DNA of 8,623 nt. It comes from a virus (lineage: Duplodnaviria > Heunggongvirae > Uroviricota > Caudoviricetes). Shown here in pieces: positions 4,351-7,896 of the stretch (its first letter is position 1; every line of letters starts with the position of its first letter). Below the pieces are notes generated by a model. It was not told where the DNA came from. It worked only from the letters and a program-made list of their open reading frames with translations, and ran no database searches. The stretch lies in IMG/VR virus record IMGVR_UViG_3300029085_000036. One strand, 5' to 3'. Both the position numbers and the translations under genes were made by a program.

Positions 4351-4439
4351 TTTCACAACGTTATTGTAATACCGCCGTTTTTCCCCGTTTACAACGCGTG
4401 CGCTGGACATTACCATCCTCCTCTGCGATTTATTATCGC

Positions 4440-4491
4440 AACCAAACGACTCGGGGTGCCCTTCTTTGTGAAGGCTGAGAAATACCCGTAT
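4440..4491 (+). ncRNA. TPP (THI-box) riboswitch aptamer, 5' portion only (thiM leader type), truncated at its 3' side
   Basis: Contains GGGGTGCCC...GGC, CTGAGA and ACCC elements in the order expected for the P2/P3/J3-2 part of a TPP aptamer. Matches the E. coli thiM leader as I remember it up to ...ATACCCGTAT. The expected continuation (CACCTGATCTGG... P4/P5 helix) and thiM are absent. Confidence 0.75.
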
Positions 4492-4522
4492 TTTCTCATT
4501 TAGTGTTTTTTGCGGTTCGGGG

Positions 4523-4604
4523 TTGTTCGTGGTTGTTTGCGTATGCATTTGATATTAAATATAATATTGCGTTTTCTTGTTTGTCATTGTTCGTCGTTGT
4601 TCGT
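4523..4604. repeat. Three copies of TTGTTCGT (4523-4530, 4587-4594, 4597-4604) plus the variant TTGTTTGCGT; candidate integrase arm-type binding sites
   Basis: Direct repeats read from the sequence, clustered between the junction and the int start codon. Their role as arm sites is inferred. Confidence 0.4.
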
Positions 4605-4620
4605 AGAGCTTCAACGAAAT

Positions 4621-4644
4621 GTGTGGTCAGTTGTGTGGTCAGTT
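4621..4644 (+). repeat. Perfect 12-bp tandem duplication GTGTGGTCAGTT x2, upstream of int
   Basis: GTGTGGTCAGTT at 4621-4632 and again at 4633-4644, identical. Lies 36 bp upstream of the int GTG start. Confidence 0.85.
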
Positions 4645-4679
4645 TTTTGAGGCTGGAGGACTGAAAAGAGGATCTGATA

Positions 4680-5900
4680 GTGGGAAAAGCACTAAACAAA
4701 CTGAGCGATTCGACGTTAAAAAAATTGGCGGCTGTCCAGGCAGAAAAAGAGCGTTTTTACTCCGACGGGGGCGGGCTGGAGATTAAACACTCAAAGGGCG
4801 GCAAATTAACCTGGTATTTCCGGTACCGAACAGGAGGACGTGAGGTTGCTGCTGAGCGGCTAAAGTTGGGGGCTTATCCTGAATTGTCGCTGAAAGCCGC
4901 AAGGGAAAAACGCACACAGTGCCGGTCATGGCTGGCAGAGGGTAAAAACCCCCGTTATGAGTTGTGCACCACAGTAAAGGAAGCACTAAAACCCGTTACG
5001 GTGAAGGAGGCGATTAACTACTGGCTGGAGGAATACGCGAAGGATAACCGCAAAGACTACATAAAGCTGGTGCAACGTATGGATAAGCACATCATTTGCC
5101 ATATAGGGGCAATTCCCCTTGATAAGTGTGATACAAGGCAGTGGATCGCATGTTTTGACCGTGTACGAAAAAAAGCACCAGTAGCAGCGGGGCACGTCAT
5201 GCAAACCTGCAAACAAGCGCTAAAGTTCTGCCGCAGGAGGCGCTACGCGTTCAGTAATGCCCTGGACGATTTGATCGTCAGCGATGTGGGTAAGAGAGCA
5301 GAAATTCGCGAGAGAGTGCACAGCAACAGCGAATTAAAGGAAATTTTACGCGCTATTGATGGTGATGTGTTCGCGCCTTACTACAGCGCGTTAATGCGCT
5401 TGCTGATTGTGTTCGGGTGCAGAACGGCAGAGGTCAGACTTTCAGAGATCAAAGAATGGGATCTGAAAGAAATGTTGTGGACAGTGCCAAAAGAGCACAG
5501 CAAAACGAAGGTAACGATATTCAGGCCAATACCCGATGGCATTTTGCCGTTCATTCAGAAGCTGGTGGAGCAGAACCGGCATACAGGGTTATTACTCGGA
5601 GAACTGAAAAAAGATACCACGGTAGCGCAATATGGGCGAAATGCGCATAAGCGGCTTAACCAGGAACACTGGACGCTGCATGACTTTCGCCACACGTTTA
5701 CAACGATGCTGAACGATTTAGGTGTCGATCCGCATATCGTGGAGCACATCACAGCGCATCAGATGCCTGGTCAGCAAAAAACCTATAACCATTCACGCTA
5801 TTTACAGGCGAAGCGGGACGCGTTGAATCTGTGGGTTGAGCGTCTCGATGTGCTGGCTGGAAATCATGAAAATATTGTTATGCTGAAGGTGGCTAAATGA
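4680..5900 (+). CDS. int: Tyrosine site-specific integrase, P4-like (406 aa), GTG start
   Basis: GTG at 4680 is the first canonical start after an in-frame stop at 4662-4664, with AAGAGGA 7 nt upstream. N-terminal arm-binding-type region (GGLEIKHSKGGKLTWYFRYR). C-terminal catalytic-type motifs (HDFRHTF, YNHSRY). Sits next to the junction with chromosomal sequence. Confidence 0.9.
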   Translation: MGKALNKLSDSTLKKLAAVQAEKERFYSDGGGLEIKHSKGGKLTWYFRYRTGGREVAAERLKLGAYPELSLKAAREKRTQCRSWLAEGKNPRYELCTTVKEALKPVTVKEAINYWLEEYAKDNRKDYIKLVQRMDKHIICHIGAIPLDKCDTRQWIACFDRVRKKAPVAAGHVMQTCKQALKFCRRRRYAFSNALDDLIVSDVGKRAEIRERVHSNSELKEILRAIDGDVFAPYYSALMRLLIVFGCRTAEVRLSEIKEWDLKEMLWTVPKEHSKTKVTIFRPIPDGILPFIQKLVEQNRHTGLLLGELKKDTTVAQYGRNAHKRLNQEHWTLHDFRHTFTTMLNDLGVDPHIVEHITAHQMPGQQKTYNHSRYLQAKRDALNLWVERLDVLAGNHENIVMLKVAK

Positions 5901-6616
5901 AATTACCTAAAAGACTCTATTATCCGTTACCTGAAGCGGCAGAAAAGTTAGGATGTACAATAAGGGATCTCTATCATTTCGCTAGTACAGGTGCCATTGA
6001 TATTTCTGTATTTATTCCTGAGCATAGTGTTGGGAACTGTGAGGTTTATTTTCTTGAGGGATTTAAAGATAATAAACGGAATGGACTAATATTCCAGGAC
6101 GGCAAAACAATTAATTTAGAGAAGAAAGTAGATGATAGATTATATATAGCAAATTTTATTGCTGGTTTTTTCTATGTAAACAAAAAGGCGTTCTCTGATA
6201 TTGAGTTTAAACATAATAACATCATAAGCTCACCAACATTATATTTTTACCCTGATAGACTTGGCGGTGGATTAGAAATAACTCCAGAAGGGGAAAATCT
6301 CAAGCCATTTGATATAGATGTTGATTATTTATGTGTGATGGCAGATGATTTAAATAATGTAAAAGATGAAGGTAGTTTTCGTAATCTTACAGAAGATAAC
6401 CCCAAAAGAGCAGCAAAAAGGAATGAGGTTATTTACTCTTTAATTAAACTTATTCCAGAAATGGGTGATGTAGACCTAGACACGGAATCATTACCTAAAA
6501 TAGCAGATTTAATTGATTCTATAGCTGCATCCAGAGGGATAGAATTTCCCAAAACACATTGGCAGACATGGCAAAAGTATTTGGGGCGTGAATCTCAACA
6601 AAAACGCAAAAAGTGA
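5897..6616 (+). CDS. Hypothetical 239-aa cargo protein with a possible N-terminal helix-turn-helix; AT-rich, family unrecognised
   Basis: ATG at 5897 overlaps the int stop (ATGA) and has a strong Shine-Dalgarno AAGGTGG 4 nt upstream. Visibly AT-rich compared with int and alpA. The N-terminus (LPEAAEKLGCTIRDLYHFASTGAI) resembles excisionase/AlpA-type HTH. The C-terminal ~190 aa match nothing I recognise. Confidence 0.65.
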   Translation: MKLPKRLYYPLPEAAEKLGCTIRDLYHFASTGAIDISVFIPEHSVGNCEVYFLEGFKDNKRNGLIFQDGKTINLEKKVDDRLYIANFIAGFFYVNKKAFSDIEFKHNNIISSPTLYFYPDRLGGGLEITPEGENLKPFDIDVDYLCVMADDLNNVKDEGSFRNLTEDNPKRAAKRNEVIYSLIKLIPEMGDVDLDTESLPKIADLIDSIAASRGIEFPKTHWQTWQKYLGRESQQKRKK

Positions 6617-6644
6617 TATCACGTGCTGGTAGTGTGATATCACA
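6612..6644. promoter_or_regulatory. Two copies of the perfect palindrome GTGATATCAC (second extended to GTGTGATATCACAC), 9 bp apart; candidate operator or hairpin upstream of alpA
   Basis: GTGATATCAC at 6612-6621 (overlapping the cargo stop codon) and GTGTGATATCACAC at 6631-6644. A TAGAAT -10-like hexamer lies at 6666-6671. Confidence 0.5.
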
Positions 6645-6707
6645 CAAACGGCGTTTTACCACCGCCTAGAATCGTCCTCGTTCGGCAACGTTCGGGGACG
6701 TTTTTTT

Positions 6708-6932
6708 ATGAATCAAAATACACAATTTCAATCACTATCAGATCGCGTAATCCGTGAGGATGAATGTCGTAAGTTAACAGGAGTGTGCCGCACTACACGC
6801 TATGAACTGGAGAAAAAAGGATGCTTTCCGTCACGTCTTAATCTGGGCGGTCGTTCTGTAGGTTGGCTGCTGTCCGAGGTTATGGAATGGGTTAAAAGCC
6901 GGGATCGCATTAATTCAGGCAAGGCAGCGTAA
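6708..6932 (+). CDS. alpA: AlpA-family phage regulatory protein / excisionase-like (74 aa)
   Basis: Small ORF with the characteristic AlpA/Vis-type pattern (...CRKLTGVCRTTRYELEKKGCFPSRLNLGGRSVGWLLSEVMEWV...). Lies downstream of int as in P4-like and CP4-57-like elements. Confidence 0.85.
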   Translation: MNQNTQFQSLSDRVIREDECRKLTGVCRTTRYELEKKGCFPSRLNLGGRSVGWLLSEVMEWVKSRDRINSGKAA

Positions 6933-6959
6933 AGGGGAGTATATGGCACATAAAACAAA

Positions 6960-6979
6960 GGCGACCGGGGGCGGTCGCC
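6960..6979 (-). terminator. Rho-independent terminator for the minus-strand small-gene pair
   Basis: Stem GGCGACC (6960-6966) / GGTCGCC (6973-6979) with a G-rich loop. On the minus strand it is followed by TTTGTTTTAT. No comparable U-tract on the plus strand. Confidence 0.55.
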
Positions 6980-7043
6980 AATGGGAATACACTAAACATA
7001 AGCCCAGCCATCATAGCGATTTGCTGGCTGGTGGGCAATGTGA

Positions 7044-7253
7044 TCAGCCTGGTGGGCGGTTCCTGTTAGCTTTCATTACCCGGGGCTGTTTATTGAGAAA
7101 CTCATCAAGCGCAAATTTTGTAGGCGCTGGTTCTGTATTTGGTGGCATTTGTTTAGCGTGTGTCTTTTCTTTCTGGCGTGCAACAATGCTCTGTAAAAGC
7201 AATCTTCGTTGTTCTGCGAAAATCTCTTCAGTGGATAGGTATTTTTTGCTCAT
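7044..7253 (-). CDS. Hypothetical small basic protein (69 aa)
   Basis: Minus-strand ORF (MSKKYLSTEEIFAEQRRLLLQSIVARQKEK...) directly downstream of the 59-aa gene and followed by the terminator at 6960-6979. Overlaps the implausible 317-aa plus-strand ORF, which I reject. Confidence 0.45.
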   Translation of the reverse strand: MSKKYLSTEEIFAEQRRLLLQSIVARQKEKTHAKQMPPNTEPAPTKFALDEFLNKQPRVMKANRNRPPG

Positions 7254-7310
7254 AGTGCCGACCTGTAAAGCAATGCGCCGGAGTACCTCACACCACAGCG
7301 CTGATAGTGA

Positions 7311-7490
7311 TTATTCTTGCTCTTTAGCCTTGCGTCGCTGGCGGTATTCAACTTCTCGCTTTAATGCTGCTGTTACAAACTGCCCTGTACTTTCACCAGG
7401 CATTTTTACCGCCTCAACATTGTTCATAACTTCATGCGGAACCCTTGCCGCAACTGTTTGTGATTTTGCGTTTACTGCTTTTGTCGCCAT
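7311..7490 (-). CDS. Small 59-aa protein, possibly a ribbon-helix-helix or YlcI/YnfO-like prophage regulator; not in the supplied ORF track
   Basis: Hand-translated from the reverse complement: MATKAVNAKSQTVAARVPHEVMNNVEAVKMPGESTGQFVTAALKREVEYRQRRKAKEQE, with stop TAA at 7311-7313. ATG at 7490 has GAGGGG about 8 nt upstream. Divergent from the early operon across the repeat-bearing control region. Family assignment is from memory. Confidence 0.5.
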   Translation of the reverse strand: MATKAVNAKSQTVAARVPHEVMNNVEAVKMPGESTGQFVTAALKREVEYRQRRKAKEQE

Positions 7491-7540
7491 GTTGTGTACC
7501 CCTCACAAAAAACAAATGCAGTATGCAGGAAAAAAAACAA

Positions 7541-7593
7541 GTGTTCAACACTTGACGTGTTCAACACCTGAGTTTAAATTGGTGTTCAACACC
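7541..7593. promoter_or_regulatory. Three copies of a dyad-symmetric 11-bp motif GTGTTCAACAC (7541-7551, 7557-7567, 7582-7592) in the divergent control region; candidate operators
   Basis: Exact repeats read from the sequence. Each is an inverted repeat GTGTT-C-AACAC. Overlaps promoter-like hexamers TTGACG (7552-7557) and TAAATT (7575-7580) on the plus strand, and TTGAAC/CATACT on the minus strand. Confidence 0.6.
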
Positions 7594-7689
7594 TTGTTGA
7601 TGCAAGGTGCAGAAACGACGAAACCCGGCAGTGCGCTAACACTAACCGGGCTTCTAACCACCAACGATAGCAAGAATATCGAGGTAGCT

Positions 7690-7896
7690 ATGAGAAATCA
7701 TACCACACACCCGCAAGGGCGGGACTCACACAACCTGAATAAATACATCTGGCGTTTTATTGCCCTGAGCACCGCACAACCGCGCGTGATTCACATTGAG
7801 GCCACCAGCGAACAGGAAGCACGCCAGCAATCCCCGGCTGGCTGCGTGATGGTATTTACTGCCCGTATTCGTCAGGGGGTGCGCCATGTGCAATAA
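7690..7896 (+). CDS. Small 68-aa protein, possibly Icd/Kil-like host cell division inhibitor; first gene of the island early operon
   Basis: Internal ATG at 7690 of the long track ORF, with GAGGT 4 nt upstream. Sequence pattern (...WRFIALSTAQPRVIHIEATSEQEARQQSPAGCVMVFTARIRQ) resembles Icd-like proteins of P4-like prophages as I recall them. Stop overlaps the start of the next gene. Confidence 0.45.
   Translation: MRNHTTHPQGRDSHNLNKYIWRFIALSTAQPRVIHIEATSEQEARQQSPAGCVMVFTARIRQGVRHVQ

What the first reader, a model, noticed from the sequence alone, without database searches (positions are those of the whole stretch)
6612..6707. Paired perfect palindromes GTGATATCAC overlapping the cargo stop codon and preceding alpA
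GTGATATCAC (6612-6621) and GTGTGATATCACAC (6631-6644) are exact palindromes 9 bp apart. They could be operator sites for a dimeric regulator (AlpA or the cargo protein's HTH). Alternatively the pair could fold as a 10-12 bp stem-loop that terminates or stabilises the int-cargo transcript. A TAGAAT -10-like hexamer (6666-6671) and a short direct repeat CGTTCGG x2 (6679-6694) follow, just before the alpA ATG. This looks like a regulatory junction separating cargo expression from alpA expression.
Basis: seen in the sequence. Interest (0 to 1): 0.4.

Follow-up and report, generated by a model that had tools for sequence, protein, structure and literature searches.

The report
Paired operator sites upstream of alpA
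Two identical DNA palindromes, always the same distance in front of the master switch gene (alpA) of a phage-parasitic island, look like docking sites for a still unidentified regulator. They give a testable handle on how such islands sense their helper phage.

Summary
The palindromes are real but lie one base right of the reported coordinates: GTGATATCAC at 6613-6622 and GTGTGATATCACAC at 6632-6645, centres 21 bp apart.

A single 10-bp palindrome is not rare here. The identical pair and its conservation are.

The window holds a PICI/cf-PICI-type phage satellite with the gene order int, an uncharacterised 239-aa gene, then alpA.

In 21 of 22 distinct related junctions carrying that gene family, a dyad pair sits in the same register. 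Spacing is 20-22 bp and the second centre usually lies 66-69 nt before the alpA ATG. Only 1 of 29 junctions with another upstream gene has such a pair (p = 4e-12).

The spacer and flanks are free to vary. The dyad sequence changes in classes (GTGA-NN-TCAC, GGAA-N-TTCC). These classes follow the C-terminal domain of the upstream protein, not AlpA.

As an RNA hairpin the pair is not conserved.

It holds the alpA ribosome-binding site and is followed by seven T.

Best reading: operators for a dimeric regulator at a promoter with no -35 element, plus an insulating hairpin. The binding protein and the transcription start are inferred, not shown.

The parts
4680..5900 (+). Tyrosine integrase of the island (P4-type, with an arm-binding domain). 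Its stop overlaps the start of the next gene (ATGA at 5897-5900).
   Evidence: Pfam Arm-DNA-bind_3 and Phage_integrase. Overlap read.
5897..6616 (+). It has an N-terminal Xis/MerR-like winged helix, a hypervariable beta-rich middle and a C-terminal helical domain (type 1, ...TWQKYLGR). It is the candidate binder of the dyads.
6613..6622 (.). Dyad site 1, GTGATATCAC. It contains the stop codon of the upstream gene. Its centre is 90.5 nt before the A of the alpA ATG.
   Evidence: Invariant in 7 E. coli variants whose upstream proteins are 35-60% identical. Same register in distant relatives.
6623..6631 (.). Nine-base gap between the 10-mer and the 14-mer. It lies within the 11-nt spacer between the two 10-mer cores (6623-6633), which is free to vary.
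   Evidence: Five of the 11 spacer positions vary among E. coli variants. The spacer is unrelated in sequence in distant loci. Mean information is 0.45 bit per column against 1.81 for site 1.
6632..6645 (.). Dyad site 2, GTGTGATATCACAC (core 6634-6643). Its centre is 69.5 nt before the alpA ATG. That is about -41 if transcription starts near 6680.
   Evidence: the only 14-bp palindrome in the window. Centre-to-ATG distance is 66-69 nt in 17 of 21 family junctions.
6667..6672 (+). TAGAAT: a -10-like hexamer directly 5' of the hairpin. Alternatively, the A-rich flank that pairs with the T-run.
   Evidence: An nAnAAT-type hexamer abuts the stem in most relatives. The folds extend the stem into it with A-U pairs, so the reading is ambiguous. 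No -35-like hexamer lies upstream.
6673..6700 (+). Conserved hairpin: 5' arm CGTCCTCG (6673-6680), 12-nt loop (6681-6692), 3' arm CGGGGACG (6693-6700). The two CGTTCGG copies span 6679-6695, covering the loop and the adjoining stem bases. The 3' arm holds the alpA Shine-Dalgarno GGGGA (6694-6698).
   Evidence: -17.7 kcal/mol, z -4.0. Present in 17 of 17 distinct junctions, with compensatory changes at five or more stem positions and G-U intermediates.
6701..6707 (+). Run of seven T directly after the hairpin. Together they look like an intrinsic terminator 1 nt before the alpA ATG.
   Evidence: Read. The U-run is absent in several relatives (L019, L020, L021, L074, L075).
6708..6932 (+). alpA (74 aa), the master activator gene of Gram-negative PICIs.
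   Evidence: Pfam Phage_AlpA, E 1.1e-15. Role taken from PMC6092414 and 10.1101/2022.09.08.507074.

Best explanation
The two palindromes are a pair of operator sites for a dimeric DNA-binding regulator that controls alpA, the island's master activator gene.

They sit two helical turns apart (21 bp), at a fixed distance upstream of alpA. The stretch where a -35 element would lie holds no such element. If transcription starts about 7 nt after the TAGAAT hexamer (near 6680), the centres lie near -41.5 and -62.5. That is the classical layout of an activator-dependent promoter.

The most likely binder is the protein encoded immediately upstream (5897-6616), probably through its C-terminal helical domain. 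This protein is co-expressed with the integrase. Its hypervariable middle domain could sense a helper-phage product.

The hairpin at 6673-6700 is a separate element with a different job. In transcripts that read through from int and the upstream gene, it sequesters the alpA ribosome-binding site. With the T-run in this island, it would also terminate those transcripts. Leaky upstream transcription therefore cannot set off AlpA's positive feedback. Transcripts that start inside the 5' arm lack the hairpin and are translated.

Shown: the anatomy, the conservation, the covariation and the associations.

Inferred: that a protein binds, which protein, the start site, the sign of regulation and the insulator role.
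For: 1. Identical dyads 21 bp apart; the only 14-bp palindrome in the window.

2. Both dyads are invariant in 7 E. coli island variants whose upstream proteins are only 35-60% identical. Five of 11 spacer positions vary.

3. The register is fixed relative to the alpA ATG in relatives from Klebsiella, Citrobacter, Trabulsiella, and unassigned read-assembly and IMG/VR contigs. This holds even where the dyads lie inside the upstream coding sequence (L102, L021/L097).

4. In an AlpA-anchored set, 21 of 22 distinct junctions with the family gene have a dyad pair. Only 1 of 29 with other upstream genes does (Fisher p = 4e-12). Shuffles give 10.7% anywhere and 1.9% in register.

5. Sequence changes keep the symmetry. 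L165 site 2 is GCGATATCGC and L016 is GGGGAATTCCCC. Whole classes exist: GTGA-NN-TCAC and GGAA-N1-2-TTCC.

6. Self-complementarity of each arm is needed by a dimer on DNA, not by an RNA hairpin. The arm-to-arm fold is not conserved.

7. The dyad class follows the C-terminal domain type of the upstream protein (10/10 and 10/10). It is independent of the N-terminal type (L166, L178).

8. No -35-like hexamer is present in any locus.

9. The hairpin is conserved in 17 of 17 junctions, with compensatory and G-U changes and the Shine-Dalgarno in the 3' arm. A transcript starting at 6680 is unstructured: -4.2 kcal/mol, z +0.8.

10. In the literature, alpA promoters are switched on by helper phages independently of SOS and partly independently of AlpA. 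The inducer is unknown (PMC6092414 and PMC11773190).
Against: - There is no binding, footprint or transcription-start data. All positions relative to +1 depend on taking TAGAAT as the -10.
- That hexamer could instead be the A-rich flank that pairs with the T-run. In some relatives it has T at the second position, where -10 elements normally have A.
- The link between dyad class and C-terminal domain is confounded by adjacency of 0-60 bp. They would be co-inherited anyway.
- The C-terminal domain has no recognisable DNA-binding fold.
- The N-terminal winged helix, the only recognisable DNA-binding domain, does not covary with the dyads.
- Islands with a closely similar AlpA (about 91% identical; L004) lack the dyads, so they are not universally needed for alpA expression.
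- The U-run is not conserved, so termination is not a general property of the hairpin.
Confidence: 0.6

Rival explanations
1. The dyads are operators, but the binder is not the upstream protein. It is a helper-phage regulator or a host factor. The island would then read the phage's own activator directly, as satellite P4 reads P2 Ogr at its late promoters.
For: - alpA transcription depends on a helper phage, and the inducer is unknown.
- At the same place, other islands (L147 type, with a DUF6387 gene upstream) carry a single dyad, TCACCG-N3-CGGTGATAA. Its right half matches the lambda operator half-site as I recall it.
- The C-terminal domain has no known DNA-binding fold.
Against: - The dyad pairs occur almost only with the family gene (21/22 against 1/29). 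Their class follows its C-terminal domain.
- In IMG/VR the exact pair turned up, outside these satellites, only in unrelated phage groups. These include low-GC contigs with arrays next to ribbon-helix-helix genes, high-GC contigs with arrays, and repeats inside coding sequence.
Confidence: 0.2
2. The pair acts as RNA. The two copies pair into a 10-12 bp stem-loop at the 3' end of the int/upstream-gene message, terminating it or protecting it from exonucleases.
For: In the window the fold is good: -13.8 kcal/mol, z -3.25. It lies at the stop codon of the upstream gene.
Against: - No U-run follows it.
- An RNA stem does not need each arm to be self-complementary.
- The fold is weak in Klebsiella (z -0.6), Citrobacter (z -1.5) and Trabulsiella (z -1.0).
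- Substitutions keep symmetry within a site rather than pairing between sites (L165).
- The register is tied to the alpA ATG, not to the stop codon. The sites lie after the stop in L018 and inside the coding sequence in L102 and L021.
Confidence: 0.08
3. The dyads are AlpA's own binding sites, used for its known positive autoregulation.
For: AlpA activates its own promoter in EcCICFT073 and EcCIMP1. AlpA is a winged-helix DNA binder.
Against: - The AlpA core is identical in L014 and L033 (GTGAT class) and L022 (GGAA class), and differs at one residue in L010 (GTGAA/GTGAT).
- L004 has AlpA about 91% identical to the window's and no pair. L021 has AlpA of the same family, about 54% identical, and only a single palindrome.
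- From my own knowledge, Xis/AlpA-type proteins typically bind direct repeats as monomers.
Confidence: 0.05
4. The dyads have no function of their own. They are carried along with the 3' end of the upstream gene, or mark a recombination boundary for module exchange.
For: They adjoin or overlap the 3' end of a gene with shuffled domains.
Against: - Conservation is confined to the dyads, while the spacer and flanks drift.
- Symmetry-preserving changes occur.
- Spacing and distance to alpA are constant across loci whose upstream proteins are only 29-45% identical to the window's.
- They persist inside coding sequence, where they constrain codons.
Confidence: 0.05

Closest known systems
Satellite phage P4: late promoter P_LL upstream of vis (the alpA homologue), activated by P2 Ogr or P4 Delta (from my own knowledge; context in PMC10111431)
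   Same: A satellite with the order int, then an AlpA-family gene, then a replication module. The AlpA homologue is the first gene behind a promoter that has no usable -35 element and depends on an activator bound at an upstream dyad. This links satellite induction to the helper.
   Different: As I recall it, the P4 site is a single TGT-N12-ACA dyad centred near -55, bound by zinc-finger Ogr/Delta proteins. Here there are two 10-14 bp dyads 21 bp apart, with other sequences. There is also an extra gene between int and alpA and a hairpin over the ribosome-binding site.
SaPI master repressor Stl and its operators (Gram-positive PICIs; from my own knowledge and PMC6092414)
   Same: An island-encoded DNA-binding protein with a variable part that could bind a helper-phage protein, sitting next to the island's control region. 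This is the functional role proposed here for the upstream protein.
   Different: Stl is a repressor transcribed divergently from str/xis, with an HTH_3-type domain. Here the gene is co-oriented with int and alpA. The fold is different, and the promoter layout points to activation. No sequence or fold relation was found.
Class II / class I activator-dependent sigma-70 promoters (CRP, FNR) and cooperatively bound phage operators such as lambda OR1-OR2 (from my own knowledge)
   Same: Dyad-symmetric sites for dimers, an integral number of helical turns apart. The inferred centres are near -41.5 and -62.5. No -35 hexamer is present.
   Different: The half-sites (GTGAT, GGAA) match neither CRP (TGTGA-N6-TCACA) nor FNR nor lambda operators. 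The transcription start here is inferred, not mapped.
Insulating terminator of Tn916 (PMC11658703, abstract seen)
   Same: A hairpin or terminator inside a mobile element that prevents premature expression of downstream element genes from upstream transcription.
   Different: Here the hairpin also contains the Shine-Dalgarno of the protected gene and abuts its start codon. The U-run is not conserved in all relatives.
EcCICFT073 alpA promoter (PMC6092414)
   Same: The same kind of island. alpA is self-activating and induced by helper phages.
   Different: CFT073 has no gene between int and alpA and carries a different alpA allele. It has no dyad pair and no obvious hairpin; instead it has ACAAC/GACACAA repeats. 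The published reporter data therefore cannot be transferred directly.

Membership tests
Operator pair for a dimeric DNA-binding protein | Each site is dyad-symmetric | tested here: met
   Perfect 10-bp and 14-bp palindromes. Symmetry is kept through sequence change in relatives (L165 GCGATATCGC, L016 GGGGGAATTCCCCC, L098 TGGAAATTTCCA).
Operator pair for a dimeric DNA-binding protein | Sites an integral number of helical turns apart, with spacing conserved while the spacer sequence is free | tested here: met
   Centre-to-centre distance is 20-22 bp in 21 junctions. The spacer carries 0.45 bit per column against 1.81 for site 1, which was the alignment anchor, and 1.05 for the unanchored site 2.
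Operator pair for a dimeric DNA-binding protein | Specific binding by a protein | not testable with these tools
   Needs EMSA or footprinting. Only indirect association with the upstream gene family is available.
Activator-dependent (class II plus class I) sigma-70 promoter | Weak or absent -35 hexamer with a usable -10 | tested here: inconclusive
   No -35-like hexamer in the window or relatives, and the consensus scan calls no promoter here. An nAnAAT hexamer abuts the hairpin in most loci, but it may be the A-rich flank of the stem.
Activator-dependent (class II plus class I) sigma-70 promoter | Activator sites centred near -41.5 and -61.5/-62.5 relative to a mapped start | not testable with these tools
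   The centres at 6638.5 and 6617.5 give -41.5 and -62.5 only if +1 is at 6680. No start-site data are available.
Intrinsic (Rho-independent) terminator, for 6673-6707 | G+C-rich stem-loop directly followed by a U-run | tested here: met
   8-bp stem with 6 G-C pairs and one G-U pair, 12-nt loop, T7. The scan tool did not list it because its loop limit is 3-8 nt.
Intrinsic (Rho-independent) terminator, for 6673-6707 | The feature is conserved in relatives | tested here: inconclusive
   The stem is conserved and covaries in 17 of 17 junctions. The U-run is missing in L019, L020, L021, L074 and L075.
RNA stem-loop formed by the two palindromes | Arm-to-arm pairing conserved or compensated in relatives | tested here: not met
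   z -3.25 in the window, but -0.6, -1.5 and -1.0 in Klebsiella, Citrobacter and Trabulsiella.
AlpA (PF05930) autoregulatory sites | Sites covary with, or always accompany, the AlpA allele | tested here: not met
   Identical or near-identical AlpA cores go with different dyad classes. L004, with about 91% identical AlpA, has no pair.
P2 Ogr / P4 Delta-dependent late promoter | TGT-N12-ACA dyad centred near -55 (motif recalled from memory) | tested here: not met
   The sequence 6600-6680 holds TGT...ACA only with a 6-nt gap, inside site 2.
MerR-type promoter | Dyad located between a -35 and a -10 element separated by 19-20 bp | tested here: not met
   No -35 or -10 pair flanks either dyad. Only the N-terminal fold of the upstream protein resembles MerR.
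Gram-negative PICI / cf-PICI satellite (context of the window) | Co-oriented int, alpA, primase/replicase and further modules; no complete set of phage structural and lysis genes | tested here: met
   The window has int, alpA and an Icd-like gene. L001 is 99.7% identical across the query 5897-6950 and continues with a DUF927 primase, SSB and PerC, ending before thiM. The O157 relative L002 has the capsid and terminase module of the cf-PICI type described for EcCIEDL933.
Pseudomonas aeruginosa AlpA antiterminator system | AlpA with a 21Q-like fold that binds GGGACG between -35 and -10 and bypasses a downstream terminator | tested here: not met
   The papers describe a protein with DNA-contact residues up to position 142 and eight helices, and compare it only with phage Q proteins. 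The 74-aa Phage_AlpA protein here is much shorter and has a different domain. The shared name appears to be coincidental.

The most novel reading that the evidence does not exclude
The uncharacterised protein between int and alpA could be a missing phage sensor and master regulator for a large subset of Gram-negative PICIs and cf-PICIs, including islands of the type described as EcCIEDL933.

It would have three parts: a Xis-like winged helix, a hypervariable beta domain that binds a helper-phage protein, and a new C-terminal DNA-binding domain. As a dimer it would occupy the two dyads at about -41 and -62 and switch alpA on or off.

The dyad classes and C-terminal types would then be matched specificity pairs that keep co-resident islands from cross-talking.
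Probability: 0.25. Interest if true: 0.8.

Novelty: new variant of a known kind. Interest (0 to 1): 0.55.

Why it matters
How helper phages switch on alpA is an open question. The 2018 paper that defined Gram-negative PICIs says the inducer was still under study (PMC6092414). I found nothing in the searched literature about these dyads or this gene family.

The conserved dyad pair gives a defined cis-element and a candidate trans-factor to test. It is present in islands of the type described for EcCIEDL933, an island studied experimentally.

If the upstream protein binds the dyads, the matched operator and domain classes would also offer a natural set of orthogonal regulator-operator pairs.

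If nothing binds, the hairpin remains a clear example of insulating a self-activating master regulator from upstream transcription.

Tried and rejected
1. AlpA as binder. Rejected by lack of covariation.

2. RNA hairpin formed by the two palindromes. Not conserved.

3. N-terminal winged helix as the specificity partner. Its recognition-helix region does not follow the dyad class. L166 and L178 combine a type-1-like N-terminus with a type-2 C-terminus and GGAA dyads.

4. P. aeruginosa AlpA antitermination. A much larger protein with a different fold that shares only the name.

5. Known defence systems or families for the upstream protein. No PADLOC, PHROG or Pfam hit. DUF6387, which sits at the same position in other islands, is not related.

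7. Rfam. No family matches at the junction. There is only a weak symR-like hit elsewhere.

8. Helper phages carrying the same dyad pair. The IMG/VR pattern scan found satellites of this family plus unrelated phage groups. These were low-GC contigs with arrays next to ribbon-helix-helix genes, high-GC contigs with arrays, and coding repeats. None gave a link to a coliphage regulator.

9. Genome-collection scan with the protein family. Only one locus was returned, from Serratia, because the peptide pattern was narrow.

10. Search with the C-terminal domain alone. Only fragments of the same gene were returned. Family members with longer middle regions have the same three-part layout, and the one looked up (P0058) sits in the same int-X-alpA context. 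Binder and linkage therefore could not be separated.

11. CRP, FNR, lambda, MerR and Ogr site models, compared from memory with the sequence. None fits.

12. Integron attC-like recombination site. Rejected, because the register is tied to alpA and not to the gene end.
Full report
**Context**

The window carries E. coli chromosomal genes: yehB, yehA, rcnB, rcnA and rcnR. These are followed by a mobile island:
- a tyrosine integrase (4680-5900);
- an unannotated 239-aa ORF (5897-6616) whose start overlaps the int stop (ATGA);
- alpA (6708-6932, Pfam Phage_AlpA, E 1e-15);
- a region whose end encodes an Icd-like protein.

No tRNA gene is present. A genome that is 99.7% identical across 5897-6950 shows the island continuing with a DUF927 primase, SSB and PerC, and ending at thiM (L001). 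The O157 relative (L002) adds a capsid, portal and terminase module. That is the cf-PICI type described for EcCIEDL933. The finding therefore lies in the int-alpA control region of a PICI-type phage satellite.

**The observation**

The elements exist but lie one base to the right of the reported coordinates:
- GTGATATCAC at 6613-6622, containing the stop TGA at 6614-6616;
- GTGTGATATCACAC at 6632-6645;
- TAGAAT at 6667-6672;
- CGTTCGG at 6679-6685 and 6689-6695;
- the alpA ATG at 6708.

One perfect 10-bp palindrome is not remarkable. The window has 10, and shuffles average 8.65. What is unusual is an identical copy 21 bp away. The motif, with up to one mismatch, occurs nowhere else in the window, against 0.23 expected. 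The only 14-bp palindrome in the window is here too.

**Conservation within E. coli**

The junction occurs in 66 of 5426 complete E. coli genomes, always downstream of this ORF family. alpA-like sequence alone matches 412 genomes.

Seven island variants have upstream proteins only 35-60% identical to the window's. In all seven, both palindromes are invariant, while 5 of the 11 spacer positions vary. An island whose AlpA is about 91% identical but which has a DUF6387 gene upstream (L004) lacks the palindromes. It shares only the last 40 or so bases before alpA.

**Conservation beyond E. coli**

Protein-first retrieval gave loci from Klebsiella, Citrobacter, Trabulsiella, an unclassified member of Enterobacterales, and unassigned read-assembly and metagenome contigs. 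All have the order int, family gene, alpA.

When the junctions are right-aligned on the alpA ATG, two dyads fall in the same register in nearly all of them. The sequences vary:
- GTGATATCAC twice in L018, L019, L020 and L184;
- GTGAATTCAC plus GTGATATCcc in Klebsiella;
- TGTGATATCACA plus TGTGATtTCACA in Citrobacter;
- GGTGAACTCCCC plus GGGGGAATTCCCCC in Trabulsiella;
- TGGAAATTTCCA twice in L098;
- TGGAATATTCCA in L099-L101.

The sites lie after the stop codon in L018 and inside the coding sequence in L102 and L021/L097. Their position is therefore tied to alpA, not to the end of the upstream gene.

Eight further loci came from an exact-pattern scan of IMG/VR. They are biased by construction and I left them out of the statistics. 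Some of those contigs were later recovered independently by the protein- and AlpA-anchored searches, and those recoveries do count.

**An unbiased test**

I fetched 80 IMG/VR loci using AlpA alone. These reduced to 51 distinct junctions, which I classed by whether the upstream ORF matches the family profile.

A detector looked for two similar dyads with 4-nt arms, a 0-2 nt centre, at most one mismatch in total, and centres 19.5-22.5 bp apart. Results:
- 21 of 22 family junctions had a pair;
- 1 of 29 other junctions had one (Fisher p = 4e-12);
- 10.7% of shuffled sequences had a pair anywhere, and 1.9% had one in the expected register.

The centre of the second dyad lies 66-69 nt from the ATG in 17 of the 21. 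It lies at 74 nt in the four whose hairpin loop is longer.

Information content is concentrated in the dyads. Site 1 carries 1.81 bits per column, but it was the alignment anchor, so this value is inflated. Site 2, unanchored, carries 1.05. The spacer carries 0.45 and the flanks 0.34-0.41.

**DNA operator or RNA hairpin**

Two identical palindromes can always pair with each other, so the good fold in the window (-13.8 kcal/mol, z -3.25) is expected. That fold is not maintained in Klebsiella (z -0.6), Citrobacter (z -1.5) or Trabulsiella (z -1.0), and no U-run follows it.

An RNA stem has no need for each arm to be self-complementary. A dimer on DNA does. Substitutions keep symmetry within a site: GCGATATCGC in L165 and GGGGAATTCCCC in L016. 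I conclude the pair is a DNA-level element for a symmetric protein.

**Who binds**

*AlpA is unlikely.* Its core is identical in L014 and L033 (GTGAT class) and L022 (GGAA class), and differs at one residue in L010 (GTGAA/GTGAT). L004 has about 91% identical AlpA and no pair. L021 has a more distant AlpA and only one palindrome.

*The upstream protein is the best candidate.* Its model (pLDDT 82.9) shows three parts:
- a beta-rich, hypervariable middle;
- a C-terminal four-helix domain with no recognisable relative.

The N-terminal recognition region does not follow the dyad class. The C-terminal domain does:
- type 1 (...TWxKYLGR) goes with GnGA-NN-TCnC in 10 of 10 junctions;
- type 2 (...WLKDxDID...) goes with GGAA-N1-2-TTCC in 10 of 10.

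This includes proteins that combine a type-1-like N-terminus with a type-2 C-terminus (L166, L178).

This is the pattern expected if the C-terminal domain reads the dyads. However, the two are at most 60 bp apart and would be co-inherited anyway. I could not find family members outside the int-X-alpA context that would break the linkage. A helper-phage or host binder remains possible.

**The second element**

- 5' arm CGTCCTCG (6673-6680);
- 12-nt loop (6681-6692);
- 3' arm CGGGGACG (6693-6700);
- then T7 and the ATG.

It folds at -17.7 kcal/mol (z -4.0). All 17 distinct junctions tested have it. There are compensatory changes at five or more stem positions and G-U intermediates. One is the U-G pair in the window itself, where L002 has U-A.

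The 3' arm always holds the purine-rich Shine-Dalgarno of alpA. The U-run is strong in E. coli and several others but absent in L019, L020, L021, L074 and L075. Occlusion of the ribosome-binding site is therefore the universal property, and termination an addition in some lineages.

A hexamer of the form nAnAAT (TAGAAT here) abuts the stem in most loci. It could be a -10 element, which would place the start inside the 5' arm. An RNA starting at 6680 is unstructured: -4.2 kcal/mol, z +0.8. It could equally be the A-rich flank that pairs with the U-run. I cannot decide between these without a mapped start.

**Model**

This part is inferred.
- int and the upstream gene are transcribed constitutively and are translationally coupled.
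- Their read-through transcripts fold the hairpin, which blocks alpA translation and, in this island, terminates transcription.
- alpA has its own promoter with no -35 element.
- With +1 near 6680, the dyads are centred at about -41.5 and -62.5, the classical positions for an activator dimer.
- The regulator bound there turns alpA on when a helper phage is active, and AlpA then amplifies its own expression.

Published work fits this. alpA promoters respond to helper phages, not to SOS, and still respond partly without AlpA. The inducer is unknown (PMC6092414 and PMC11773190). Repression by occlusion is an alternative sign for the same architecture.

**Comparison with known systems**

- The nearest analogue is satellite P4. 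Its AlpA homologue Vis is the first gene behind the activator-dependent late promoter P_LL (my own knowledge; context in PMC10111431). The site and the activator there are different.
- Functionally, the proposed sensor-regulator resembles SaPI Stl, without any homology.
- The hairpin resembles insulating terminators such as the one described in Tn916 (PMC11658703).
- EcCICFT073, the experimentally studied PICI, has no intervening gene, no dyad pair and no obvious hairpin. Its reporter data cannot be transferred.
- I found no paper mentioning this motif as an operator, or this gene family.

**Verdict**

The operator reading is well supported by comparative evidence, but there is no direct binding evidence. 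The AlpA-binder and RNA stem-loop readings are not supported. The more strongly conserved RNA element was overlooked.

This is a new variant of a familiar kind of control region. It is of moderate to good interest because it gives a concrete, testable entry to the unsolved question of how these satellites sense their helpers.

Noticed in passing
window 6681-6692, and the hairpin loops of L010-L183: The hairpin loop carries a conserved direct repeat with a 10-nt period, GAAC-N6-GAAC, in most lineages, even though the stem covaries. In the E. coli lineages (window, L004) the loop reads GTTC-N6-GTTC. Its reverse complement matches the others at 9 of 12 positions, against 5 of 12 in the direct sense (my comparison by eye with the L080 loop). 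The whole hairpin cassette therefore looks inverted. A conserved loop suggests that a protein, perhaps AlpA or the conserved N-terminal winged helix, recognises it.
   Followed up: partly
L147-L150, L163, L173, L176: about 55-75 nt before the alpA ATG: Islands with a DUF6387-like gene upstream of alpA carry a single dyad, TCACCG-N3-CGGTGATAA, at about the same place as the paired dyads. Its right half equals the lambda operator half-site TATCACCGC as I recall it. This may mean that a lambdoid CI/Cro-type protein acts directly on alpA in those islands.
   Followed up: partly
window 6943-7896: The 317-aa ORF after alpA is probably not one real gene. Only its last 90 or so residues match Icd-like 'transcriptional repressor' PHROGs. 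Related islands are annotated there with short Icd-like genes or pseudogenes and antisense YlcI/YnfO genes. Published work places P4-like immunity RNAs in this zone (PMC10111431).
   Followed up: partly
window 6960-6979 (- strand) and 7617-7689 (- strand): A perfect 8-bp inverted repeat, GGCGACCG-N4-CGGTCGCC, is followed on the minus strand by a T-rich tail, making a terminator-like site just after alpA. There is also a weak symR-like Rfam match (33 bits against a gathering score of 61, E 0.0024).
   Followed up: no
L023-L086 (IMG/VR), e.g. L040 1543-1620: In unrelated low-GC phage contigs of 34-62 kb, arrays of four to eight (A/G)TGATATCA(C/T) motifs lie between a TTGACA-N17-TATAGT promoter and genes for ribbon-helix-helix proteins. 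High-GC contigs (L056, L058, L071-L073, L082, L083) have similar GTGATATCAC arrays. The same palindrome seems to have been adopted as an operator by other protein families.
   Followed up: partly
L088 8170-8245 and 8440-8490 (E. coli CFT073, EcCICFT073): The 365-bp int-alpA spacer of EcCICFT073 has no ORF. It holds runs of (G/A)AACAAC and GACACAA direct repeats, a different solution for the same control region.
   Followed up: no
window 5897-5900: The int stop and the start of the next gene overlap (ATGA), suggesting translational coupling. Called or annotated gene coordinates give the same 4-nt overlap in most relatives, though not in all (L012, L006, L008).
   Followed up: partly
window 4351-4679: The island lies between rcnR and thiM with no tRNA gene at the junction. 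The attachment site was not identified. Relatives in Klebsiella, Citrobacter and Trabulsiella sit next to a TetR-family regulator gene that adjoins RND efflux-pump genes.
   Followed up: no
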